Positions 8,227 to 44,158 of a stretch of DNA of 47,013 nucleotides are shown here, piece after piece; the stretch's first letter is position 1, and every line of letters begins with the position of its first letter. The DNA is from an uncultured Bacilli bacterium. Its GTDB lineage: Bacteria > Bacillota_I > Bacilli_A > RFN20 > CAG-826. Where the stretch lies: positions 1 to 47,013 of the forward strand of contig CANQQL010000003.1 of assembly GCA_947625975.1 (NCBI GenBank). Reading direction: 5' to 3'. The translations under genes were made by a program, and so were the position numbers. The notes under the pieces are model-generated. The model was not told the origin of the DNA and searched no databases. It worked only from the letters and a program-made list of their open reading frames with translations.

Positions 8227-8243
8227 CGAAAGCTACTTTTTTT
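8220..8243 (+). terminator. Intrinsic terminator of the yabP-yabQ-divIC unit
   Basis: AAGTAGC-GAAA-GCTACTT followed by a T run. Confidence 0.85.
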
Positions 8244-8275
8244 CGACATTAAAATCCCCAATAGTCCATTAAGAT
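8242..8275 (+). promoter_or_regulatory. Spo0A box and long-spacer sigmaA promoter for spoIIE
   Basis: TTCGACA (8242-8248) is the reverse complement of the perfect 0A box TGTCGAA and overlaps a -35 TCGACA; N21; TAAGAT (8270-8275). Confidence 0.7.
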
Positions 8276-8292
8276 TGAGTTGAGGAAAATTT

Positions 8293-10422
8293 ATGGAAAA
8301 AGTAATTGAAAAATGGACATCGGTTTTTTTGTTTCTACTATCTTTATTATCAGTTTTGTTTAATCGATCTTTTTCGGTTAATCCTTTTTTACTAATAGCA
8401 TTGTATTTTTCTTTTTATAAAGGGTTAAAAAGCTATTTATTAAATTTTACCTCCATGCTGATATTATCTTTTGTTATTGAAAGATCATATGCCTTAGAAA
8501 TAGCAATAATCGGGATTTCTTTTTTGTTTATTACATCATTATTTTCTTATATGTTTAGAAAACCTGAGCAGAGACTATTTCCCCTATTGCTTTTAAACTT
8601 TTTTTGTTTTTTAGGCATTATAATAATAGATTTTTCCTTAGAAAATATAGTTTTGTTGATGATTAATACTCTACTTCAGCTTGTAATTATTAAAGCTTTG
8701 GAAGAATTTTGGGATTCACTCAATAGCATCGACGTGACTTGTTCAAATGTTAATAAGGCTCTTGTCTTAATGACCTTAGCGATAATCGGGACATTTCTAG
8801 AACCAATAGGTTTATTCACAATAAGATTTGTTTTACTTTTAGTAGCGTTAAAATTAAAAGATGAAGTAGGAATTTTATCTATATTTTTATCTTGTATTTA
8901 TTGTGTTTTGTTCTTAGACTATTCCTTTTTGACTTTAACTGCATTGTTTTTACCACTTGTTTTAGTATTCGTAATTCACAAATATGAAATTTTTGTTTAT
9001 CTTATTACCACAATAATTATGTTATTGTTATCACCAACGCCAATATATTTAAATATTTCATTGTATCTAACAATTTTGACTTCGATTATTGCAATTTCGA
9101 TAAACAAAACAAAAATACAGACTTTTTCTTCGTTATTTAAGCAAAATCGCTATAACTTATCAATAAGAGAACAAAATTATCTGGCTTACACCAATGGGCA
9201 AATTGAAGCATTAAAAAACTATATTTCTTTAATTGATACAACGAAGGAAGAAGAAATAAGAGATCCTTTTGAACAAGCAATTTTAAATATTAGCACTTCA
9301 ACTTGTGCACAATGTGAGCATTATCAATTTTGTAAATTAAAGCGAGATTTGCCAACTTTTTTTGATGAAAAAGTTACCTCCGGCAATCGTAAATTAATTA
9401 TGGAAACATGTATTACACCTTATAAACTAACTATGGCAATCGAGACATATTATAAGGTATACAAAAGCGAAAAACTTTATTATGCTAAATACTTAGATGC
9501 CAATAAGAGGTATAAATATTTAGTTAAATCAATCGAATCACCGCTAAAAAATTGTGCACTTAAACTTAATTATAAATTTCAAAACAATATTGAAAGAAAA
9601 ATCCTTGAATCTAATCTCCATTATTATAAATTTTATTTGCGGGAAAATGATTTGGTTGTGGAATTTAATATCGAAAATTTTGAAGAAAATTCTCAAGCGT
9701 TTGATGAATTTGTTAAGGAAAATCTTGAAGTTAACTATCAGAAGATAATTAAGCCACAAAATATTTTAACATCTACGATTACAGTTATTTATAAAGCCAT
9801 AGAGAAAGCTAAATATGATATGGGAGTAATCTCCAAAGCTCTTGTTCCACCATATAACGGAGATAATTACTTTGTTGATAATAAAGATGACTATTTGCTG
9901 GTGTGTTTGTGTGATGGTATGGGACATGGAGAGCAAGCGGAAGAGTGCTCTAAATATCTTTTAAGTGCGATACAAACGCATTTGAAACTATCTACAGGCT
10001 TTTCGGATATGGTCAATGATTTAAATAATATCTTATTAATGAAAAACATAAATGACTGTTATTCAACAATGGATTTATTTAAGTTGAATTTATCAACTTT
10101 AAATGGTACATTTGTCAAGGCGGGAGCGTTTATCTCGTATGTTATAAGAAATAGAGATATAATTCCAATAGAAAGACACAACCTGCCGTTAGGTATTGTT
10201 ACAGATTGTACATATAAAAGTTATAATTTTCAGTTTCAAAGTGGAGATATCCTAGTGATGCTAAGTGATGGAATTGGCGAAAGAGTGGAATTAGATAATA
10301 AGGTTCTCCTTGTTTCGGATGGAACAGATATGGGGAATTATGCACGAAACATTTTTAATATTCTAAACGATGAAAAAAACTTTAATGATGACTCTACTAT
10401 TATCACAATAAAGATAATATGA
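8293..10422 (+). CDS. spoIIE: Stage II sporulation protein E-like PP2C phosphatase
   Basis: About 270 aa multi-TM N-terminus, CxxC..C motif (CAQCEHYQFC), C-terminal PP2C motifs GDNY, CDGMGHG, LSDG, DDST; synteny between divIC and tilS. Confidence 0.88.
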   Translation: MEKVIEKWTSVFLFLLSLLSVLFNRSFSVNPFLLIALYFSFYKGLKSYLLNFTSMLILSFVIERSYALEIAIIGISFLFITSLFSYMFRKPEQRLFPLLLLNFFCFLGIIIIDFSLENIVLLMINTLLQLVIIKALEEFWDSLNSIDVTCSNVNKALVLMTLAIIGTFLEPIGLFTIRFVLLLVALKLKDEVGILSIFLSCIYCVLFLDYSFLTLTALFLPLVLVFVIHKYEIFVYLITTIIMLLLSPTPIYLNISLYLTILTSIIAISINKTKIQTFSSLFKQNRYNLSIREQNYLAYTNGQIEALKNYISLIDTTKEEEIRDPFEQAILNISTSTCAQCEHYQFCKLKRDLPTFFDEKVTSGNRKLIMETCITPYKLTMAIETYYKVYKSEKLYYAKYLDANKRYKYLVKSIESPLKNCALKLNYKFQNNIERKILESNLHYYKFYLRENDLVVEFNIENFEENSQAFDEFVKENLEVNYQKIIKPQNILTSTITVIYKAIEKAKYDMGVISKALVPPYNGDNYFVDNKDDYLLVCLCDGMGHGEQAEECSKYLLSAIQTHLKLSTGFSDMVNDLNNILLMKNINDCYSTMDLFKLNLSTLNGTFVKAGAFISYVIRNRDIIPIERHNLPLGIVTDCTYKSYNFQFQSGDILVMLSDGIGERVELDNKVLLVSDGTDMGNYARNIFNILNDEKNFNDDSTIITIKII

Positions 10423-35350: not shown

Positions 35351-35375
35351 AGACTTACTTTAAGGAGTGAGTCTA

Positions 35376-38300
35376 ATGAAAAACATCTTGACTTGGATCA
35401 AATGTAAATTTTCATTTTTAAAAGATGAAAAAAGTATTTTTTATTACTTCTTATCTTTAGTTGGCTTAGCTCTGTTAATGTCATTAGTGGTCCTAATTAT
35501 GGAAGATTGGACCATTCCATTAGGGGGAGATTATGTTCAACAGCAAATCCCTTTTTACACGAATGGTTACGATGATTGGTGGCATTTTTTAAAAACCGGA
35601 GAATTTCCTCTATGGGATTCTAATACGGTATTAGGTGTTAATAATATAGGCGCGAATAGTTTTTATTATTTTTTAAATCCGTTTTTTTTACCAATTTTAA
35701 TTTGTCCTAGAGGATTAATTCCACAAGGTTTAGCCATCTTGATGATTTTAAAAATGGCCTTAGCAGGCATAACATTCCGAGCTTATCTTAAATATTTAGG
35801 TGTTGAAGAAAAGACTGCAAGAATATTTGCGATTGCTTATGCCTTTTGTGGTTGGAATCTTTACTATATGTGGTTTAATCACTTTATGGAAGTTGTCGTA
35901 ATGTTTCCATTGGTGTTACTCGGTATTGAGAAAGTTTTGAAAGAAAAAAAACCATGGACTTTAATGATGGCTTTATTTGTTTTAGGTTTAGCAAATTACT
36001 TTTTCTTGGTTGTGAGTTGCTTTGCTGGAGTTATGTATGCCGGTTTTCGTTATTTTCAAACACTAAAGCAAAGAAATTTTAAAGATAATTTGTTCATCAT
36101 AGTCCTTGGTGTTTTTGGCTTTGCTGTGGGATTAATGATGTGCGCTATTGTACTCTTACCATGTTTAAATGCTGTGCAAGAAGCAGGTAGAGTAGAGAAT
36201 GCCACATATCTACAGTCTTTAAAAAATGCTTTTACCGATAAAAATTTAGAAGCATTGTGGGATTTATTATTTGATTTTAACTCCGAAAAGAAAAAATATT
36301 ATCCGCTTGCTACATATTTCTTTCCGGTTGTCAGTGATTTTAACTGTTTGTTGTATCGTAATACGGGCTATGACAATACACTTTCAAGCCTTTTTATCTA
36401 TACGCCTTTAAGTCTTATGGTTGTACCTTCTATTATTGAAAGTATACGACAAAAAAAGGTTTCCCATATTTTAGCAATCTTTCTTTTTGTACTGATGCTT
36501 TTTACCCCTTTTGCATATCAACTATTCCATGGTTTTACTGTGGACTATGGTAGATGGCAGCTTTTTGTAGTAGTCGCTTTAATAACCTATGTTGCTTTAA
36601 ATTTTAAAAACATCAAAAATTATCCAAAGTGGTATTTTGATATCTCTGTGTTAGCAATTATTGCAGGCATGACATTTACAGTTTTAACTGCTCTTGACAA
36701 TCAATACGGGGTCAGTGATATTAAAAATACTTCGGCCATTATAATTTATCAATTTATTTATGTTTTAGTATGTTATTTTATAATAAGAGGTACGGTAAAA
36801 AAAGTAAAATTCGAAACGATTTTTACGGCTATTTTATCAATCGAAGTTTTAATTGTAGGTAATTTTACTTTATTTGGTCAAAAAACAAAATATCAAAATA
36901 TCGCTGGTGGATCGGCAAATTTTGCCGATGAAGTTGAAGTAGTCAAAAAAATAAATAATAGTGATAATTCTTATTTTAGAATTTTTAATACCACGGCAAA
37001 TGACTCTACAAATAATTTGGGAATGCGCGAAAATTATAATGGTGTAGGAGGTTTTCATTCTTTATATAATACCAATATCAAAGATTTTTTAAATTGGACA
37101 AGAATATTATATTCGAAAGATACTTGGACAATGGGAGCACATGAAAAACTTATCAATCTTGATGCGTTCTTAGGAGTCAAATATTATATTGTAAAAAATT
37201 CAGATTATAATACCATCTATAAAAATGAAGTTGTCAATGATAAAGAAATGTATAATATCCCTTTTGGATTTGAATATCGGGAAGATTTATCGTCAAATTC
37301 TCATTCCGTTTTTGAAAATAAAAATTTTATAGAATTAGGATATGCTTTTGATAATATAATTCCCATAAATGCAGATTCGATTGAAAATTATATTCACTTA
37401 AATAACAACTATTCTTATGTATATTGGCAGCAAAGATCACGTAACGATGGGGCGGCGACTAGTGGTTATCTGGTAAATGATTTTATGCAAGTAATAAAAA
37501 ATGAAGAAGCGCTAATGTCCGGAGCGATTCTTTACAATGTAACAGAAGATGGCTTTTTGCAAGAAAATGAATATGATGAAGATACATTAAATTTGCTTGA
37601 AGATTTTCCTATCAATGATTTTACTTCCGCATCTGGTAAACTATATATTAATCCGGAATTACAAGTTACACGATATGCTTGCCCATCAGGTGTAGGTGAT
37701 TCAAGTGATGCTTTATTGGATAACACCAATTGCACAAAAGTTACTGGTAATAATACACCATATACAACAGGAACAACAAAGTATGTTATTGAATTAGGGA
37801 ATAATAAAAATTTTTGTAGTGCTTCTGATAAAGGATGTTTTATAGGTTTGAAATTGCAATTGAATAGATTTGCGTATGTTCATATTTTTGATGAAAATGG
37901 TAATATGCTTACTTTTGATTATCATCAATATATTAATCAAGATTATAAGAATTTACGTGGCTTTTATGTTAAAAAACCTGCAAAAACAATTGTTGTTAAA
38001 CCGATGATTAATGAAGGCGACAACACAAATATGAATGGATTTGCAATTTATGAGGAAAAATATGAAACTTATATTAATAGACTAAACAAAGTAAAAGAAA
38101 ATGCATTACAAAATGTGCACGTTTCGACAAATAAAGCAAATTTTACAACAAACTTTAGTGAAAATAAAATAGTGGTTACAACTATTCCATTTGATAATGG
38201 TTGGACGCTTAAAATGACTGATGAAAAGGGCAATATAACTAAACCACAAATTTTTAAAGCTCAAGGTGGCTTTTGTGCTTTTGTTGGAAAAAGCGGAAAT

Positions 38301-38441
38301 AACGCCTATGAAATGGAATATTTTACACCAGGTTTAAAACCTGGAATAACTATATCACTAATTGGGTTTGCCCTATTTGGTTTTACTTTAGGTTTACAAG
38401 TAATAATAAATAAAAAATATAAAAAAGAAGAAAAGAGTTAA
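35376..38441 (+). CDS. YfhO-family membrane protein (GT-C-type glycosyltransferase)
   Basis: GDYVQQQ..F, YYFLNPF, LEKVL, FRI..T, TTIPFDNGW, C-terminal TM; AAGGAG RBS supports ATG 35376. Confidence 0.88.
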   Translation: MKNILTWIKCKFSFLKDEKSIFYYFLSLVGLALLMSLVVLIMEDWTIPLGGDYVQQQIPFYTNGYDDWWHFLKTGEFPLWDSNTVLGVNNIGANSFYYFLNPFFLPILICPRGLIPQGLAILMILKMALAGITFRAYLKYLGVEEKTARIFAIAYAFCGWNLYYMWFNHFMEVVVMFPLVLLGIEKVLKEKKPWTLMMALFVLGLANYFFLVVSCFAGVMYAGFRYFQTLKQRNFKDNLFIIVLGVFGFAVGLMMCAIVLLPCLNAVQEAGRVENATYLQSLKNAFTDKNLEALWDLLFDFNSEKKKYYPLATYFFPVVSDFNCLLYRNTGYDNTLSSLFIYTPLSLMVVPSIIESIRQKKVSHILAIFLFVLMLFTPFAYQLFHGFTVDYGRWQLFVVVALITYVALNFKNIKNYPKWYFDISVLAIIAGMTFTVLTALDNQYGVSDIKNTSAIIIYQFIYVLVCYFIIRGTVKKVKFETIFTAILSIEVLIVGNFTLFGQKTKYQNIAGGSANFADEVEVVKKINNSDNSYFRIFNTTANDSTNNLGMRENYNGVGGFHSLYNTNIKDFLNWTRILYSKDTWTMGAHEKLINLDAFLGVKYYIVKNSDYNTIYKNEVVNDKEMYNIPFGFEYREDLSSNSHSVFENKNFIELGYAFDNIIPINADSIENYIHLNNNYSYVYWQQRSRNDGAATSGYLVNDFMQVIKNEEALMSGAILYNVTEDGFLQENEYDEDTLNLLEDFPINDFTSASGKLYINPELQVTRYACPSGVGDSSDALLDNTNCTKVTGNNTPYTTGTTKYVIELGNNKNFCSASDKGCFIGLKLQLNRFAYVHIFDENGNMLTFDYHQYINQDYKNLRGFYVKKPAKTIVVKPMINEGDNTNMNGFAIYEEKYETYINRLNKVKENALQNVHVSTNKANFTTNFSENKIVVTTIPFDNGWTLKMTDEKGNITKPQIFKAQGGFCAFVGKSGNNAYEMEYFTPGLKPGITISLIGFALFGFTLGLQVIINKKYKKEEKS

Positions 38442-38457
38442 TTCATAGCAAAATCTT

Positions 38458-41163
38458 TTATTTACTTTTTTCGTGACTTTTTATTTTACCTATTATTTTT
38501 TTCCAATATTCAAAATCTACAAAGAAAATATATGCTATGGCAATTAATCCAATAAGAATTGTAAGGGTATATTCATTGGTTACATATTCTAAATCAATTA
38601 TCACGTTATCGCCACTTCTTAAATTTAACTTGCTCAAATCAGCTGAAACAAACAAATCTTGTGAAATAAAAGTTTGAATAGATTTATTATTTATTTTTAC
38701 TTTCCATTTTCCTTCATAAGGAAGACTTGTCATAAGTAAAGGATAATCTTCACTGTAGGTAACATTGCCATGTAAATGCGAAGAGGATAGTCTTTTTAAA
38801 CTGATATTATGATTTTTTAAAGTGGCAAAATACTCCTTTAGTAAGTCTATATCTTCATAATAAAAGCTAGGAATTATTTCCACTTCATCCCAGACTAAAT
38901 TTTCGTTTAATTTAAGTTGATAAGTTTTACTGGTTTGATAAGAACTATATTCAATAGGATTAACGGCATAATTATACATATTAAAATAATATAAATTACG
39001 CGTATCGGTTAAAGACATATATTGACTAAATCCATCTTTGATGTAGTAGTACATCGGATATTTATTATTCAAACTTACATTATATGTAATATAACCTGGT
39101 TTAGTTATGTCGATTAAGGCATAATGATCTTCGGATAATTGTCGAATATTTTGTAAAGAAGTAGTAAATGTCAAAGGTTTTAAGACATCGCCTAGATCTA
39201 ATCCACTTAAATTTTTTAACATTTGATTTTGATAACGGAAAACATTATGTTTTTCATTATTCTCTTGTTTTGGAGCATTTTTTGCCAAATAGGCGATAGA
39301 TAAAGCATAAGGATTTTCCATGACATAAATCTTATCACCAAGATACGAATCAAAATTCTTGACCGGGGTTAAAAAATCACGTGCACCAAAGTGGCGATTA
39401 GGAATTAAGATACTATTGTACTCGAAATCTCGATCGAGAATATATTTTATACCCATTAATGAATTGGCAGTCAAAGTAGAACCTAAGCCATAGGAAGACC
39501 AGTTATTATTTGTATGAAACCCCATATAATAAGCTAAATAGTTACGAGTCGATAGTTTGTCGTTTGAGGAATAATGAGTGAGTCCCGCATAATCAAACAT
39601 AAAGGAGTCATTGTTTGCCAAATTATAGGTATGCTGAGAGTAAAAAGTTTTTTCCATACGATAAAATTCTTCGCTTTCATCATATTCTTTTACAAAATTA
39701 ATTATTTGACCGATTTCATTAATTTCTTTTTGATATTTTTCATAACTGACATAACTTCCACTTCCGGATTCAGACTCTTCTTTGTTTTTACTAATAACAT
39801 AATTAGCATTAGCATTTAAATTTATAACATTTACCACAACCAAAAGTGTAGTTATCGTAGCTAATAACCATTTCTTTTTTAAATATTTTAAAGTAAATAT
39901 TAATATAAAGGCTATTGTCGTGAATAAAATATCGTTAAGAATGTTTGTTTCGTATCCACTAAGTTTAATAATTACACTTAATAATGCAAAAGCAACTAGT
40001 GGCACCACGAAATGATGAGATTTTAATCCGGAAATGTTGTCGAATTCTTTAAAAGCAAGATAAATTAAAAAGAAATCAAAGGTAAATGCGTATCTAAATG
40101 TAAACCATGTCGGAGCAGATCCACCATGTAGCAAATTATTCGGAAATGTAAATAGCATAATAAATAAATAAAGCACTATGACAATAGAAGAACTTATTTT
40201 TTCACGACGACTGATTTTGGCATTCATAAAATATAGAATGCAAAGTGCCAAACTAAGAGAGCCAATGAAAACAAGAGGAGCGCCATTAATTATATCAGGC
40301 ATACCCAAATAGGATTGACTAGTAAGATTTTTACCGAAATCAGCGATTTTCCATAAAAATTGCATGGAAAAAGCACTGCCGTTTTCTAGTGACGCTTTTG
40401 CTCCTCGCATATTTGCAAGAGCGGACACCCAGCTAAAGGAACTGATTGCGCCAGCAAGGATAGAACCAGAAATAAATGTTCTATATAAATGTTTAATTTC
40501 TTCTTTTTTACGGTCATAGCTATATAATTTGTATAAGAAAAACACCGCAGAAAAAAAGCAGAGCATAAAGCCAATATAATAGTTAATTAAAATGGCTAAA
40601 GATAAAAAGATGATATAAAATAAATTCCTTTTACCTTCAAAGATTTTTTCGATACCTAAAACGATTAAAGGCGCAAATATTACGCCATCTAAGAACATAA
40701 AGTTAAAATTGAAAACTATAACATAAGAACATAAAGCGTAAGCTGTGGAAAAAATTAAGTTTGAAATTATTTTATCTTTATTAAGATGCATCAATAATAT
40801 ATACATGGATAGCCCAATACTACCGATTTTTAAAATGGTAATAATAGCAATACCTAAAGGTAGAGACTCGGTATTAAAGAAAATATATAAAAGGTTAAAA
40901 GGCGATAGTAAGTAGTAAGTGAACATTGAAACCATATCGCCACCTAATGGTTTAGCAAAAGTGTATTTTATGTTATTTTGGCCAAGCAATATGGTGCGGT
41001 AATAGCTAAGAAAGGATATATACTGACCTTGTGAGTCAACAAACAATATTGTGGAATCACCAAAAGGATAAATTTCATTTCTTTTTAAGATAAATAAAAA
41101 CACTAATGATGGTATTAAGAACGATATAATGAATCCACATATTGAAAATATTTTTCTTTTCAT
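38458..41163 (-). CDS. Second YfhO-family membrane protein
   Basis: DSQGQY, YYLLSPFN, FLDG, NYYIGFM, FRY.F.F, YRMEK, SLPYEGKW. Confidence 0.88.
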   Translation of the reverse strand: MKRKIFSICGFIISFLIPSLVFLFILKRNEIYPFGDSTILFVDSQGQYISFLSYYRTILLGQNNIKYTFAKPLGGDMVSMFTYYLLSPFNLLYIFFNTESLPLGIAIITILKIGSIGLSMYILLMHLNKDKIISNLIFSTAYALCSYVIVFNFNFMFLDGVIFAPLIVLGIEKIFEGKRNLFYIIFLSLAILINYYIGFMLCFFSAVFFLYKLYSYDRKKEEIKHLYRTFISGSILAGAISSFSWVSALANMRGAKASLENGSAFSMQFLWKIADFGKNLTSQSYLGMPDIINGAPLVFIGSLSLALCILYFMNAKISRREKISSSIVIVLYLFIMLFTFPNNLLHGGSAPTWFTFRYAFTFDFFLIYLAFKEFDNISGLKSHHFVVPLVAFALLSVIIKLSGYETNILNDILFTTIAFILIFTLKYLKKKWLLATITTLLVVVNVINLNANANYVISKNKEESESGSGSYVSYEKYQKEINEIGQIINFVKEYDESEEFYRMEKTFYSQHTYNLANNDSFMFDYAGLTHYSSNDKLSTRNYLAYYMGFHTNNNWSSYGLGSTLTANSLMGIKYILDRDFEYNSILIPNRHFGARDFLTPVKNFDSYLGDKIYVMENPYALSIAYLAKNAPKQENNEKHNVFRYQNQMLKNLSGLDLGDVLKPLTFTTSLQNIRQLSEDHYALIDITKPGYITYNVSLNNKYPMYYYIKDGFSQYMSLTDTRNLYYFNMYNYAVNPIEYSSYQTSKTYQLKLNENLVWDEVEIIPSFYYEDIDLLKEYFATLKNHNISLKRLSSSHLHGNVTYSEDYPLLMTSLPYEGKWKVKINNKSIQTFISQDLFVSADLSKLNLRSGDNVIIDLEYVTNEYTLTILIGLIAIAYIFFVDFEYWKKIIGKIKSHEKSK

Positions 41164-41282
41164 TGAATTTTCATTTAGCCCTTTCTTATAAAATTTAATT
41201 TAAAAAGATATCTTATTTGCTTATTATACACTTTTTATAAGGTTTTTAGAAATTTATTAAGGAAAATAGGTAGCCACTAAAA

Positions 41283-41340
41283 ATTGACAAATTTCGACAC
41301 GAATACAAACTATTATTAGTATGAATTGTTTTATGTCGAA
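41283..41340. promoter_or_regulatory. Cluster of Spo0A-box-like heptamers
   Basis: ATTGACA(41283-89)-AAT-TTCGACA(41293-99) tandem pair with a 3-bp spacer, plus TGTCGAA (41334-40). Confidence 0.6.
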
Positions 41341-41354
41341 TTTTGTTTTAAAAT
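41326..41354 (+). promoter_or_regulatory. Possible sigmaA promoter of the orphan/ugd-like operon, with a 0A box in its spacer
   Basis: TTGTTT-N17-TAAAAT, 18 nt upstream of ATG 41373. Confidence 0.45.
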
Positions 41355-41372
41355 TAACACGGTGATGAGAAT

Positions 41373-41717
41373 ATGAAAAACTATGAAGAATGGAAAATGT
41401 ATAAATTTGAAATCGAAACACAAAATCCATTTTCTAGTAAATATACCACAAATGATGGCGATATTTTCTATGTCGAGCCGGTATTTTATACAATGTTTTC
41501 ATCCTTTAAAGAACATTATCCCAATGATGTCGCAAGAATTTTAAAGGAAATGGAACGAGTGGTAAAAGTAAACCATAAAGTAATATTTACCGGTAATTAT
41601 GAGCATCCTTTAACACAAACTAAGGAAGATTTCATAATTTTGGAAATTTTCGATATTACAGATCCATTAAATATTTTTGTCGAAGATAAATCGCGCGGTT
41701 CAGATTACGGAGATTAA
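41373..41717 (+). CDS. Hypothetical protein (114 aa, acidic)
   Basis: GGTGA RBS, normal composition; no family recognised. Confidence 0.75.
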   Translation: MKNYEEWKMYKFEIETQNPFSSKYTTNDGDIFYVEPVFYTMFSSFKEHYPNDVARILKEMERVVKVNHKVIFTGNYEHPLTQTKEDFIILEIFDITDPLNIFVEDKSRGSDYGD

Positions 41718-41738
41718 CTGCGAAAATAAGAGGGTACT

Positions 41739-43028
41739 ATGAAAGTAGGAATTATTGGGTTAAGCGAATTAGGAATTACAAATGTTGCATTACTTGCTAA
41801 TTTTGGTTATGAAATTATAGCATATGACTCTAATGCTTTTTGTGTATCATTACTAAGCAAAGGCATAAAAAGGTTTAAAGATGAGCGAATAAAAAAGATT
41901 ATTGATAATCACAGAGATACAATTCAATACACAACTAATATCTTAGATTTAACAGGGATTGAAGTTATAATAATTGCAATAGAATTAGAAGAAATTAATG
42001 GTAAATATAATTTAAATTCTTTTTATTTAACAATCGATGAAATAAAAAAGTTTTTTCATTGGAAAACTACGCTTATTATAAAAACTCCTTTACCGGTTGG
42101 TAGCTGTCAAATAATAGATAAGTATTTAAATCGAAATAGCAATAATTTTTCTATTGCCTATATTCCCACGTGTTGTATAAATAATAACTATTATGATGAT
42201 ATTTTTATGCCTACAAAGTTGGTAGTAGGAACATCAACTTCGCTAGCGCATATAACAGTTCGGTTATTATATGAAAAGTTTTTAATGCAAGAAGTATTGC
42301 TGTATTTTGTTTCGTTTGAAGAAGCAGAGCTTTATCGCGTGGCAAATAACTATCTGGAAGTTTTAATTACTTCTTATATTACGAACATGCATTGTCTATT
42401 TAATGATTTTAATTTAAATTTCAATAACTTAATTTCAAAAATCCAATTACCGAATATTGGTAAATTTGTGAACAAAGGCAATGGTAATAAATTAATTTGT
42501 GAATATAATAATTTAAAGTTCTTTTTAAAGAAAGATGTTAACCTTAATAAATCATTAGTAGAAGGTAATCAATACCTTGCGAAACAAATTGTGGAACAAT
42601 TGCCAAAAGATGCTTTAACTATTGGGATTTTGGGAATTAGTGATGCTTTTGAAGATGTTAGTATAATGGCTATAGAAATAATCTCTCAAATATTAACAAG
42701 TTTAAATTCAACAGTTTATATTTATGATAAAACAAATGAAGAAAACTTTAAAAAATTAATAGGGCCAAATAAAAAAATCAAATATGTTTTAGATGAAAAG
42801 AATTTGTTAAAAAAGACCAATATAATTTTAATACTTCATAAGAAAGAATCTTATAAAGAACTAAATGAAGAGTTTTATTTGAAATATGGACAAGATAATT
42901 TAGTTATTTATGATTTTGATGAGGTTTACAAATATAGTAATTGGTCAAGTGTAAAATTAATTAAAGTGAATAATCAAAGTAATTTAAAATACGAAGAACC
43001 TTCTATATATGAAAAAGCACCACAATAG
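41739..43028 (+). CDS. UDP-glucose/GDP-mannose dehydrogenase-family homolog with degenerate active site
   Basis: Collinear with TuaD/Ugd over its full length by eye, but GxGxxG is GLSELG, NPEFLREG is IPTCCINN, AEMIK is AELYR, and GGSCFPKD is not conserved (GNGNKLICEY). Confidence 0.75.
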   Translation: MKVGIIGLSELGITNVALLANFGYEIIAYDSNAFCVSLLSKGIKRFKDERIKKIIDNHRDTIQYTTNILDLTGIEVIIIAIELEEINGKYNLNSFYLTIDEIKKFFHWKTTLIIKTPLPVGSCQIIDKYLNRNSNNFSIAYIPTCCINNNYYDDIFMPTKLVVGTSTSLAHITVRLLYEKFLMQEVLLYFVSFEEAELYRVANNYLEVLITSYITNMHCLFNDFNLNFNNLISKIQLPNIGKFVNKGNGNKLICEYNNLKFFLKKDVNLNKSLVEGNQYLAKQIVEQLPKDALTIGILGISDAFEDVSIMAIEIISQILTSLNSTVYIYDKTNEENFKKLIGPNKKIKYVLDEKNLLKKTNIILILHKKESYKELNEEFYLKYGQDNLVIYDFDEVYKYSNWSSVKLIKVNNQSNLKYEEPSIYEKAPQ

Positions 43029-43038
43029 TGGTGCTGAT

Positions 43039-44052
43039 TTATTGTTGTTGGATTGAAGGATTTAAGTTTCTGGATGTTAGCCACATTATTCTGATACCAA
43101 GCATTACCATAAATAGCATTGTTGAGAATGATGGGAATATAAACCCTATAAGCGCTGATAAAATTGCTGGTGAAAGAGATGCGACACCGACAATCTTCAT
43201 AGCTTCAACAAATTTATAATCACGATAAGGATTATGTTTACCTCTGGTTATGATGAAGATCATTAAAACCATAAATAAAGATATAATGACATTAATTGCA
43301 GCGTAAATGCCGACTTGCGTAAACAAAGTTACTATTTTAGTGCTTTTATAGCCAACATCAATAAATTCTTTCCAATTGGAGAGAGAATGTTCGCCGGTAT
43401 ATGACGACATAACTTCTCCATTTTTAAAGCGGTCATATTTCATATAGCGTGTGGCAAATGGGGAGGACCAACTTTCAGCATTTTTGCTGTAAACGCAAAG
43501 AAAACATTCGGTTTTTCCAATAATTAAAAACGACGAAATTCCAATTGCAGTAATTTCTTGTGCTTGAATTTCACTAACTTTTTTATTAAAATCATCGCTA
43601 TTTAAATCTAAGGCAAGATAAACTCTTAATCGTTGAACTAATTTATCGCTGTAAGTACCATCTTCCTCGATGATGCGATCTGATCGCTCGTAAAAGAAGT
43701 ATTGGTAAGAATCAGGAGCATAAAAGTGTTCAGGATCATTGCTATTTGCCCAATTGTTATCGGGATCATTCATGGTAATGATTTTTGTTCCGTCTTCTTC
43801 TTTAATCTCGAATTTTATATTTTTTTCCTTCATAGTTTCAGAGAAATAGACTAATCCTTCATCTGCTCCATTGGCGTTACTACTAAGAATAGAAGAGCCT
43901 TTGACTGATGCAATCGTAACAATACTTGGAATCAATGCGACAATCATAGCAATGATAAATATAATGAATGACTCAATCCATTTTCTTTTTCGCCCTTCAA
44001 TAATTACACTATTATTGAATAAAGATTTAAGAACATATCTAAATGGTTTCAT
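43039..44052 (-). CDS. Membrane protein, possibly DUF1189/MalA-like (1 N-terminal TM, extracellular domain, 3 C-terminal TMs)
   Basis: Topology and C-terminal YKFVEAMKIVGVASLSPAIL; AGGGTG RBS supports ATG 44052; family call tentative. Confidence 0.55.
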   Translation of the reverse strand: MKPFRYVLKSLFNNSVIIEGRKRKWIESFIIFIIAMIVALIPSIVTIASVKGSSILSSNANGADEGLVYFSETMKEKNIKFEIKEEDGTKIITMNDPDNNWANSNDPEHFYAPDSYQYFFYERSDRIIEEDGTYSDKLVQRLRVYLALDLNSDDFNKKVSEIQAQEITAIGISSFLIIGKTECFLCVYSKNAESWSSPFATRYMKYDRFKNGEVMSSYTGEHSLSNWKEFIDVGYKSTKIVTLFTQVGIYAAINVIISLFMVLMIFIITRGKHNPYRDYKFVEAMKIVGVASLSPAILSALIGFIFPSFSTMLFMVMLGIRIMWLTSRNLNPSIQQQ

Positions 44053-44158
44053 TGCAAACATCACCCTTTTCAATGAATAATTATATAAGATATAATACTT
44101 AATTTCAATAAAATAAAAATTGACTATAAATTCAAAAGAATAAAATTTCTCAATCATT

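What the first reader, a model, noticed from the sequence alone, without database searches (positions are those of the whole stretch)
41283..41739. Dense Spo0A-box cluster at an orphan two-gene operon (114-aa unknown plus dead Ugd), divergent from yfhO
Seen: ATTGACA-AAT-TTCGACA (tandem, 3-bp spacer), then TGTCGAA at 41334-40 inside the spacer of a TTGTTT-N17-TAAAAT promoter, and another perfect TGTCGAA at 41678-84, about 55 nt before the ugd-like start. TTGACA(41284)-N21-TATTAT(41311) also matches the long-spacer type. That is three perfect heptamers in about 400 bp; my rough estimate of the chance expectation is a few per 47 kb. Established: tandem 0A boxes with 10-bp periodicity occur at abrB and spoII promoters. 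Inference: this is an undescribed Spo0A-controlled operon, repressed or activated, and the divergent yfhO could share the sites.
Basis: partly seen in the sequence, partly recalled or inferred. Interest (0 to 1): 0.65.

Follow-up and report, generated by a model that had tools for sequence, protein, structure and literature searches.

The report
Likely Spo0A operator at conserved small-protein operon
The promoter of a conserved small-protein gene and its inactive sugar-dehydrogenase partner, in a spore-forming gut bacterium known only from metagenomes, carries what look like real binding sites for the sporulation master regulator Spo0A; this adds a probable new target to a well-known regulatory system rather than a new kind of system.

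Summary
One of the three perfect heptamers (41678-84) lies inside the 114-aa gene and is only the codons F-V-E of an invariant protein motif, so it is incidental.

The two promoter heptamers and the tandem pair ATTGACA-aat-TTCGACA are more than chance:
- The genome has spo0A with a recognition helix almost identical to that of B. subtilis.
- Its own spo0A, spoIIE and spoIIGA promoters carry perfect boxes.
- Tandem box-N3-box sites are more frequent in intergenic DNA than for any of 630 composition-matched 7-mers.
- Across 61 related genomes, tandem sites are enriched only where spo0A is present (42 sites in 24 genomes against 11 in 37).
- The tandem site is kept at the orthologous promoter in eight other species. 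In four of them it is among the 1-3 best tandem sites of the whole genome.

Four of this genome's five intergenic tandem sites, this one included, have a -10 hexamer exactly 21 nt after the first box. That is the spoIIE/spoIIG long-spacer design.

The operon is not orphan: the 114-aa protein occurs in 50 of 61 relatives, most of them without spo0A. Several congeners lack the boxes. Direction of control is inferred and no binding or expression data could be obtained.

Verdict: a probable new member of the Spo0A regulon, of modest interest.

The parts
41283..41289 (-). Box 1: ATTGACA, a weak 0A box (5 of 7 matches to TTCGACA). Its last six bases, TTGACA (41284-89), are also a consensus -35 hexamer. 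It is the upstream half of the tandem site.
   Evidence: Sequence. Conserved as yTGACA or TTCGACA in G005, G002, G004 and the metagenomic loci L031, L033 and L091.
41293..41299 (-). Box 2: TTCGACA, a perfect 0A box (TGTCGAA on the minus strand), 3 bp after box 1, giving 10-bp phasing.
   Evidence: TCGACA is invariant in the six box-bearing species of the alignment (L091 and G022 also keep it), while the flanks differ. It is one of only five intergenic tandem sites in the genome.
41311..41316 (+). TATTAT, the inferred -10 of P1. It lies 21 nt after TTGACA and 11 nt after box 2 (long-spacer, spoIIE/spoIIG-type promoter).
   Evidence: Same register at C58:3336, C12:12465 and C40:3865, and N20-21 at spoIIE and spoIIGA. 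Conserved as TAATAT, TATTAT or TATGAT in six of the seven other box-bearing species of the genus. The start site has not been mapped.
41326..41331 (+). TTGTTT, the -35 of P2 (standard 17-nt spacer).
   Evidence: Kept in all box-bearing congeners and in G003 and G006, which lack 0A boxes; G001 has TTGTCA here.
41334..41340 (+). Box 3: TGTCGAA, a perfect 0A box inside the P2 spacer and about +12 to +18 relative to the inferred P1 start. On the minus strand it reads TCGACA and could act as a -35 pointing toward yfhO.
   Evidence: It is TGTCGAG in six relatives and TGTCGGT in one. The TCG is present only where the upstream tandem boxes are present (6 of 6 against 0 of 3).
41349..41354 (+). TAAAAT, the -10 of P2, followed by 6 nt and the ribosome-binding site.
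   Evidence: The layout -10, 6 nt, GGTGAT also occurs at spoIIE, spoIIGA and C12:12465 in this genome.
41361..41366 (+). GGTGAT, the Shine-Dalgarno sequence of the 114-aa gene.
   Evidence: GGTGA is conserved in all nine aligned genus members and in G022 (sixth base C in G004).
41373..41717 (+). Gene for a conserved 114-aa protein of unknown function. The model is confident, matches no known fold, and ends in an invariant flexible tail EDKSRGSDYGD.
41678..41684 (+). TGTCGAA inside the coding sequence. These are the codons TTT-GTC-GAA (F-V-E) of the invariant tail motif, so the match is incidental.
41739..43028 (+). Gene for a 429-aa homologue of UDP-glucose dehydrogenase that has lost its catalytic motifs (a pseudoenzyme). 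It starts 21 nt after the 114-aa gene.
   Evidence: It is adjacent to the 114-aa gene in all genus members examined (L093 excepted) and in G022.
38458..41163 (-). Divergent yfhO-family membrane glycosyltransferase gene.
   Evidence: PF09586, E 1.8e-145. The divergent arrangement is conserved.
41223..41228 (-). TATAAT on the minus strand, the conserved candidate -10 of yfhO's own promoter. It lies about 55 bp from box 1.
   Evidence: The motif ttattatacacttttt is conserved in congeners with and without 0A boxes.

Best explanation
The 209-bp region between yfhO and the 114-aa gene carries a real Spo0A~P operator on two overlapping sigma-A promoters.

- Tandem site. ATTGACA-aat-TTCGACA (41283-99) has the head-to-tail, 10-bp-phased layout that binds a Spo0A~P dimer. 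It overlaps the -35-like TTGACA of P1. P1's -10, TATTAT, lies 21 nt away, too far for RNA polymerase alone. This is the design of the spoIIE and spoIIG promoters, which need Spo0A~P.
- Third box. TGTCGAA (41334-40) lies in the 17-nt spacer of the ordinary promoter P2 (TTGTTT-N17-TAAAAT), which sits 6 nt before the ribosome-binding site.
- Proposed action. During growth the operon runs from P2. When Spo0A~P rises it occupies box 3 and shuts P2, and it occupies the tandem site and turns on P1. Expression of the 114-aa protein and its dead-Ugd partner is thereby handed to the sporulation master regulator.

Shown: the motifs, their conservation, their link to spo0A, and the shared promoter register.
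Inferred: binding, the two start sites and the direction of control.
For: - The regulator is present, with a recognition helix matching B. subtilis Spo0A bound to DNA.
- In-genome controls: two boxes before spo0A, TTCGACA-N21-TAAGAT before spoIIE, and TTCGACA-N20/21-TAATAAT before spoIIGA.
- Intergenic tandem sites rank 1 of 630 composition-matched words.
- Four of the five intergenic tandem sites, this one included, have a -10-like hexamer exactly 11 nt after the second box. The background chance is 0.059 per position.
- Sites with at most 1 mismatch: 42 in 24 spo0A-positive genomes (reversed-pattern control 6) against 11 in 37 spo0A-negative genomes (control 10).
- The orthologous promoters of G002, G005, G004 and G022 are among the only 1-3 such sites in their genomes.
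- Footprint: TCGACA of box 2, GACA of box 1 and TGTCG of box 3 are invariant in the six aligned box-bearing species (L091 shows the same) down to 67% protein identity, while the 34-nt interval is scrambled.
- Box 3 co-varies with the upstream boxes.
- Literature: a perfect core box predicts binding by clostridial Spo0A (PMC3485338), and two boxes 3 bp apart form a footprinted Spo0A site (PMC2731898).
Against: - No binding, start-site or expression data.
- Box 1 has 2 mismatches, one of them at the contacted G5 position.
- TGTCGAA is common in this genome (185 copies), so a single box carries little information.
- G003, G006, G001 and two metagenomic relatives have spo0A or belong to the same genus but lack all three boxes.
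- Spo0A-positive genomes of other families show no boxes at their homologue.
- Box 3 would lie at +12 to +18 of P1 and could hinder P1 transcripts.
- One relative (L033) lacks a -10 in the P1 register.
- Only 1 of 20 tandem sites sampled in other genera has the N11 -10, so the promoter class may be lineage-specific, or the G000 pattern may be partly post hoc.
Confidence: 0.5

Rival explanations
1. Spo0A~P binds, but its only effect is repression. P2 is the sole promoter. The box in its spacer blocks RNA polymerase, and the upstream tandem site, four helical turns away, serves as a high-affinity anchor. The operon would be a vegetative function switched off at the onset of sporulation.
For: - P2 (-35, -10, then 6 nt to GGTGAT) is the element conserved in all congeners and has the short-leader layout typical of this genome.
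- The gene is co-transcribed with the housekeeping gene rlmH in most spo0A-less genera.
- Boxes 2 and 3 are 41 bp apart, start to start.
- Repression through boxes near or after the start site is known at abrB (cited in PMC3485338 and PMC12090719).
Against: - The exact box-N3-box-N11-(-10) register shared with three other promoters and conserved in relatives would then be coincidence.
- Box 3 is imperfect (TGTCGAG) in most species.
- The spacing between boxes 2 and 3 varies from 33 to 35 nt.
Confidence: 0.22
2. The heptamers are not Spo0A sites. They are -35-like hexamers (TTGACA, TCGACA) of ordinary promoters, or the arms of an inverted repeat bound by another regulator, or chance matches in an AT-rich spacer.
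For: - The 13-nt inverted arms ACAAATTTCGACA and TGTCGAATTTTGT.
- TCGACA-N17-TAGTAT on the plus strand and TCGACA-N16-AATAAT on the minus strand score as sigma-70-like promoters.
- The word is frequent genome-wide.
- Congeners G003 and G006 carry a different palindrome, ATCACAAATTGTGAT, at the same place, so another regulator can control this promoter.
Against: - The tandem motif is enriched only in spo0A-positive genomes.
- It marks spo0A, spoIIE and spoIIGA in this genome.
- The extended arms are not conserved, only the 0A core is.
- Arm spacing varies from 33 to 35 nt.
- The C of TTCGACA, which departs from the -35 consensus, is invariant.
Confidence: 0.2
3. The two inverted boxes serve as -35 elements of a back-to-back promoter pair that shares the central AT-rich -10 region. 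Spo0A~P would then co-regulate yfhO (minus strand, TCGACA 41339-34, N16, AATAAT) together with the 114-aa operon.
For: - The minus-strand match scores 10 of 12, the best in the region.
- The TCGACA reading of box 3 is intact even where box 3 is TGTCGAG.
- The minus-strand -10 is AATATT or CATAAT in G005, G002 and L031 (my reading).
Against: - yfhO has its own conserved TATAAT, 80 nt nearer to the gene, which is kept in congeners without boxes.
- The minus-strand -10 fails in G004 and L033.
- The leader would be about 140 nt long.
Confidence: 0.08

Closest known systems
Spo0A-activated sigma-A promoters of spoIIE and spoIIG (Bacillus subtilis; Satola 1992, York 1992 and Baldus 1994, as cited in PMC2731898, PMC12090719 and PMC3485338)
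   Same: A 0A box in the TTCGACA orientation overlaps a -35-like hexamer, and the spacer to the -10 is over-long at 21 nt. This genome's own spoIIE and spoIIGA promoters have the same design.
   Different: Here the second box lies inside the spacer, 3 bp downstream of the first. As I recall, and could not check because PMC205050 is not held, the spoIIG boxes lie at and upstream of the -35. The target is not a sporulation gene. A second ordinary promoter with its own box lies 40 nt downstream.
Tandem 0A boxes of the abrB promoter and of phage phi29/Nf promoter A2c (two boxes 3 bp apart; PMC2731898, PMC3485338)
   Same: Two heptamers in direct repeat with a 3-bp gap, one of them imperfect. This is the layout bound by a Spo0A dimer.
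   Different: Those sites repress. Here the tandem pair sits where activation is expected, and a third, inverted box sits in the position of a repressor site.
The spo0A Pv/Ps promoter switch in B. subtilis (PMC12090719)
   Same: Two promoters, with several 0A boxes that repress one and activate the other.
   Different: In spo0A the induced promoter depends on sigma-H and lies downstream. Here both promoters look sigma-A dependent and the inducible one lies upstream.
UDP-glucose 6-dehydrogenase (Ugd/TuaD; PDB 4A7P, 3PHL)
   Same: The second gene is collinear with the family over its whole length (TIGR03026, E 9e-30; PF03721).
   Different: GxGxxG is GLSELG, the GGSCFPKD nucleophile motif is lost, and the aligned Cys is not conserved among congeners. 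It is probably not a dehydrogenase.

Membership tests
Spo0A binding site (0A box) / Spo0A regulon promoter | Match to the 7-bp core TGTCGAA | tested here: met
   Perfect at 41293-99 (minus strand) and 41334-40 (plus strand); 5 of 7 at 41283-89.
Spo0A binding site (0A box) / Spo0A regulon promoter | Two boxes in direct repeat, 3 bp apart (a dimer site) | tested here: met
   ATTGACA-aat-TTCGACA. It is one of five intergenic sites with at most 2 mismatches, rank 1 of 630 control words.
Spo0A binding site (0A box) / Spo0A regulon promoter | The organism encodes Spo0A with a conserved DNA-binding domain | tested here: met
   PF08769, 145.8 bits. Match to 1LQ1 at E 7e-41 with the recognition helix conserved.
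Spo0A binding site (0A box) / Spo0A regulon promoter | Sites conserved at orthologous promoters and tied to the presence of spo0A | tested here: met
   Conserved in seven congeneric species and in G022. 42 sites in 24 spo0A-positive genomes against 11 in 37 spo0A-negative genomes. Absent in G001, G003, G006, L090 and L092.
Spo0A binding site (0A box) / Spo0A regulon promoter | Direct binding by Spo0A~P (gel shift, footprint or ChIP) | not testable with these tools
   The organism is uncultured and no such data exist.
Spo0A binding site (0A box) / Spo0A regulon promoter | Spo0A-dependent change in transcription | not testable with these tools
spoIIE/spoIIG-type long-spacer sigma-A promoter | A -35-like hexamer overlapped by a 0A box, 21-22 nt from a -10 hexamer | tested here: met
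   TTGACA-N21-TATTAT. Same register at C58, C12 and C40, and at spoIIE and spoIIGA.
spoIIE/spoIIG-type long-spacer sigma-A promoter | A transcription start 6-8 nt after that -10, dependent on Spo0A~P | not testable with these tools
   No transcript data available.
UDP-glucose/GDP-mannose dehydrogenase (active enzyme) | The Rossmann GxGxxG motif and the catalytic Cys in GGSCFPKD | tested here: not met
   GLSELG. The Cys motif is replaced by GNKLICEYNN, and the position is R, R or V in G005, G002 and L031, whereas G012 has the canonical motifs.
Carrier protein with a C-terminal tail modified by a RimK/LysX-type ligase (LysW and ribosomal protein S6 as models; recalled from memory) | A conserved acidic C-terminal tail and an adjacent ATP-grasp ligase gene | tested here: inconclusive
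   The tail EDKSRGSDYGD is invariant and of low confidence in the model. A RimK-like gene (PF08443, E 2e-32) follows in 5 of 45 loci, but none is found in G000. There is no zinc-ribbon as in LysW.

The most novel reading that the evidence does not exclude
The 114-aa protein has a confident model with no known fold and an invariant flexible tail, EDKSRGSDYGD. It may be a new tail-bearing carrier or adaptor protein. Its C-terminus would be the substrate of the RimK-type ATP-grasp ligase that lies between it and a canonical Ugd in some relatives. In the spore-forming clade the ligase is gone, the Ugd has become a pseudoenzyme welded to the small protein, and the pair has been placed under Spo0A~P as a developmental switch for YfhO-type envelope glycosylation.
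Probability: 0.12. Interest if true: 0.65.

Novelty: new member of a known kind. Interest (0 to 1): 0.35.

Why it matters
Spo0A regulons are known from experiments in only a few cultured Bacilli and Clostridia. This MAG belongs to a small-genome gut lineage labelled Erysipelotrichales, Mollicutes or Bacilli in public records, in which most genera have lost spo0A. If the prediction holds, three things follow.

- The 0A-box code and the long-spacer activation design survive unchanged in a 1.3-Mb genome.
- A short list of direct Spo0A targets can be read from sequence alone: spo0A, spoIIE, spoIIGA, this operon, a cold-shock gene and two unknown genes.
- There is a clean natural experiment. The same conserved gene rides on the rlmH operon where spo0A is absent, and has its own Spo0A-boxed promoter plus a dead-Ugd partner where spo0A is present.

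It also points to an uncharacterised protein pair next to two YfhO glycosyltransferases as candidates for envelope remodelling at the onset of sporulation.

Tried and rejected
- Triple cluster as a statistic: rejected. About 0.3 such clusters are expected per genome, and one member is coding.
- Phyletic co-occurrence of the 114-aa protein with spo0A: fails (50 of 61 genomes against 24 of 61).
- Family and structure searches for the 114-aa protein found nothing usable:
  - Pfam gave nothing and NCBIfam only one insignificant hit (E 0.038);
  - the PDB profile search gave nothing below E 0.26;
  - Foldseek against PDB gave a best E of 0.5 and TM about 0.2. The top rows are toxin B-pentamers at noise level and mean nothing.
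- Sigma-E, sigma-H and sigma-F/G-type promoters: read by eye, no conserved match.
- CodY, cre and Rex boxes: considered by eye and not matched.
- TCGACA-N17-TAGTAT as a plain promoter: its -10 is not conserved in relatives.
- A -10 placed 20-21 nt after box 2, as at spoIIE: the hexamers are poor (ATGAAT, ATTAAT).
- The N11 -10 rule in other genera: only 1 of 20 tandem sites fits, so I do not claim it beyond this genus.
- Baldus 1994 (PMC205050) is not held, so the spoIIG box positions rest on my memory.
- The metagenome scan added only two loci, both of the box-less type.
Full report
**1. What is in the sequence**

The region between the divergent yfhO gene (38458-41163, minus strand; PF09586, E 1.8e-145) and a 114-codon ORF (41373-41717) reads:

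...aaaaATTGACAaatTTCGACAcgaatacaaacTATTATtagtatgaaTTGTTTtaTGTCGAAttttgtttTAAAATtaacacGGTGATgagaatATG

- ATTGACA 41283-89 and TTCGACA 41293-99.
- TGTCGAA 41334-40, inside the spacer of TTGTTT (41326-31)-N17-TAAAAT (41349-54).
- TTGACA (41284-89)-N21-TATTAT (41311-16).
- A further TGTCGAA at 41678-84.

A 429-codon homologue of UDP-glucose dehydrogenase follows at 41739-43028.

**2. Is it more than chance?**

The heptamer is common in this genome.
- The window holds 12 copies, against 4.3 expected from shuffles.
- The 1.27-Mb assembly (31% GC) holds 185 copies.
- This is the only place with three copies within 400 bp. A Poisson estimate from the genomic density still gives about 0.3 such clusters per genome.

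The copy at 41678-84 is TTT-GTC-GAA, coding F-V-E of the invariant C-terminal motif FVEDKSRGSDYGD. It recurs at the same codons in G002 and in a relative without spo0A. So the "three in 400 bp" argument does not stand.

The promoter part does stand. Against all 630 7-mers of the same base composition:
- TGTCGAA ranks 7th for intergenic copies (31 against a mean of 10.3).
- It has 3 intergenic pairs within 60 bp against a mean of 0.24. The other two pairs lie before spo0A itself and before a cold-shock gene.
- The tandem form, box-N3-box with at most 2 mismatches, has 5 intergenic occurrences. That is the highest of all 630 control words (mean 0.55). This locus is one of the five.

**3. Is Spo0A there, and does it use this code?**

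- The assembly encodes Spo0A just after spoIVB (C12; PF08769, 145.8 bits).
- Its C-terminal domain matches the B. subtilis domain crystallised on DNA (1LQ1, E 7e-41). The recognition helix SRVERAIRHAIE is identical.
- Perfect boxes mark three classical targets:
  - two boxes before spo0A;
  - TTCGACA-N21-TAAGAT before spoIIE, in this window at 8242 (PF07228 confirmed);
  - TTCGACA-N20/21-TAATAAT before spoIIGA-sigE.
- Published work shows that the clostridial Spo0A domain recognises the same core, and that a perfect core predicts binding (PMC3485338).
- Two boxes 3 bp apart form a footprinted Spo0A site (PMC2731898).

**4. Comparative evidence**

The 114-aa protein is not an orphan. It is found in 50 of 61 related genomes and in hundreds of metagenomic clusters. 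Public names for its relatives are Erysipelotrichales, Mollicutes or Bacilli MAGs.

spo0A is present in only 24 of the 61 genomes. Within the family it occurs in all seven genomes of this genus, in G022, and as a partial match in G017. So the protein does not co-occur with spo0A.

The promoter, however, does track spo0A.
- In most spo0A-less genera of the family the gene starts at or within a few bases of the stop codon of rlmH and has no promoter of its own.
- In this genus and in G022 the gene stands alone, is followed directly by the Ugd-like gene, and in many species carries the boxes.
- Seven further species keep the layout yTGACA-N3-TTCGACA ... TTGTTTTATGTCGAr...TTGTTTTAAAAT. These are G005, G002, G004 and the metagenomic loci L031, L033 and L091, reaching down to 67% protein identity.
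- In those species the 34-nt interval and the upstream flank are scrambled.
- G022 has TTCGACAaatGTCGACA.

A genome-wide pattern search (at most 1 mismatch) in all 61 genomes gave these counts:

| Genomes | Number | Tandem sites | Reversed-pattern control |
|---|---|---|---|
| spo0A-positive | 24 | 42 | 6 |
| spo0A-negative | 37 | 11 | 10 |

The orthologous promoter is the only such site in G002, one of two in G004, and one of three in each of G005 and G022.

Against universality:
- G001, G003, G006 and two metagenomic relatives lack all three boxes.
- G003 and G006 carry a different palindrome, ATCACAAATTGTGAT, at the same spot.
- Homologues in spo0A-positive genomes of other families have no boxes.
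- The TCG of box 3 is present only where the upstream boxes are. This fits joint gain or loss of one operator.

**5. Promoter anatomy and mechanism**

Four of the five intergenic tandem sites in this genome share one register: box-N3-box-N11-(-10 hexamer). This places the -10 exactly 21 nt after the first box.
- C58:3336, -10 AATAAT, before a cold-shock gene.
- C12:12465, -10 TAAAAT, before an unknown 118-aa gene.
- C40:3865, -10 TTTAAT, before a weakly MinC-like gene.
- This locus, -10 TATTAT.

The chance of such a hexamer at a given intergenic position is 0.059. At C12 and C40 that hexamer is followed by 6-8 nt and the ribosome-binding site, as at spoIIE and spoIIGA. In those cases it is almost certainly the working -10. 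The register is kept in relatives as TAATAT, TATTAT or TATGAT.

I therefore read P1 (TTGACA-N21-TATTAT) as a Spo0A~P-dependent long-spacer promoter. P2 (TTGTTT-N17-TAAAAT, then 6 nt to GGTGAT) is conserved in all congeners, including those without boxes, and looks like the basal promoter. Box 3 lies in its spacer, where a bound protein should exclude RNA polymerase.

The most economical model is a hand-over from P2 to P1 when Spo0A~P accumulates. It resembles the spo0A Pv/Ps switch (PMC12090719).

The alternatives cannot be excluded without start-site data:
- Pure repression of P2.
- A minus-strand promoter that uses box 3 as a -35 aimed at yfhO (TCGACA-N16-AATAAT, 10 of 12 matches).
- No Spo0A involvement at all.

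yfhO has its own conserved TATAAT at 41223-28, which is also kept in box-less congeners.

**6. The genes**

*The 114-aa protein.*
- It has no Pfam hit and only an insignificant NCBIfam hit (E 0.038).
- It has no sequence relative in the PDB.
- It gives a confident model (pLDDT 91, pTM 0.82) with a low-confidence tail.
- It has no significant structural match (best E 0.5, TM about 0.2).
- Its last eleven residues, EDKSRGSDYGD, are invariant in the 68 aligned homologues.

*The Ugd-like protein.*
- It is collinear with the family (TIGR03026, E 9e-30).
- It has GLSELG in place of GxGxxG and lacks the GGSCFPKD nucleophile motif.
- The aligned Cys of G000 is R, R or V in close relatives, while G012 keeps all canonical motifs.
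- It evolves faster than its neighbour (53-55% against 81-86% identity to G005 and G002) but stays intact in at least nine species. It is most likely a pseudoenzyme with a retained non-catalytic role.

*Neighbourhood in relatives.* In five of 45 related loci a RimK-like ATP-grasp gene (PF08443, E 2e-32) lies between the small gene and a canonical Ugd. G000 has no such gene. This suggests, but does not show, that the invariant tail is a ligase substrate.

**7. Verdict**

- The interpretation, a new Spo0A-controlled operon, is well supported computationally. I put Spo0A binding at about 0.75.
- I put the specific activation-plus-repression model at about 0.5.
- This is a new member of a known kind. 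It is of modest general interest and is useful as an entry point to a reduced Spo0A regulon and to an uncharacterised protein pair.

Noticed in passing
L011:1873-2766, L021:1988-2887, L051:2051-3007, L053, L054 (relatives G016, G010, G031, G018, G025): In five of 45 related loci a RimK-like ATP-grasp ligase gene (PF08443, E 2e-32) lies between the 114-aa gene and a canonical Ugd. The small protein ends in an invariant flexible tail, ...EDKSRGSDYGD. As I recall, this resembles the tails that RimK/LysX-type ligases modify on S6 and LysW. G000 has no such ligase.
   Followed up: partly
window 41373-41717: The 114-aa protein gives a confident AlphaFold model (pLDDT 91, pTM 0.82) with no significant match in the PDB by sequence or by fold. 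It is a possible new fold family, restricted to small-genome gut Bacilli.
   Followed up: partly
L005 (G006), L007 (G003), L090:630-650: Congeners without 0A boxes carry a palindrome, ATCACAAATTGTGAT, at the same position upstream of the conserved core promoter. In G003 it is present as two direct copies of ATCACAAAATGTAATTA. This looks like operator replacement by another regulator.
   Followed up: no
G000 C58:3336-3352, C12:12465-12481, C40:3865-3881: Three further tandem 0A sites share the box-N3-box-N11-(-10) register. They lie before a cold-shock protein gene (perfect TTCGACAtttTTCGACA), an unknown 118-aa gene, and a weakly MinC-like gene downstream of radC. They are candidate direct Spo0A targets.
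   Followed up: partly
window 8242-8293; G000 C5:13396-13446: The spoIIE and spoIIGA promoters keep the Spo0A design: TTCGACA, then 20-21 nt, then the -10. The -10 lies only 6 nt before the Shine-Dalgarno sequence. Leaders this short seem to be the rule in this genome.
   Followed up: partly
G000 C8:19497 and C16:2695: The same 17-mer, TTCGACAAAATCGAAAA (inverted TTCGA-N5-TCGAA), occurs in two intergenic regions. It could be an operator for another factor, or a variant 0A pair.
   Followed up: no
G000 whole genome: The words AGTGCTA and GTGCTAA form 6-7 close intergenic pairs, more than any other composition-matched 7-mer. One copy lies just before the ribosome-binding site of the cold-shock gene (gtgctaagctaaaggagg). 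Unexplained.
   Followed up: no
G000 C5:13386-15701 and whole assembly: spoIIGA-sigE is followed by a sigma factor that is the best match to the sigF model but scores below its cut-off; it is probably sigG. No separate sigF (spoIIA) locus was found in this 89%-complete MAG.
   Followed up: no
window 35367-38441 and 38458-41163: Two convergent YfhO-family paralogues (1024 and 901 aa) lie side by side next to the operon, followed by an unknown 372-aa membrane protein (43039-44157, minus strand). This hints at an envelope-glycosylation neighbourhood.
   Followed up: no
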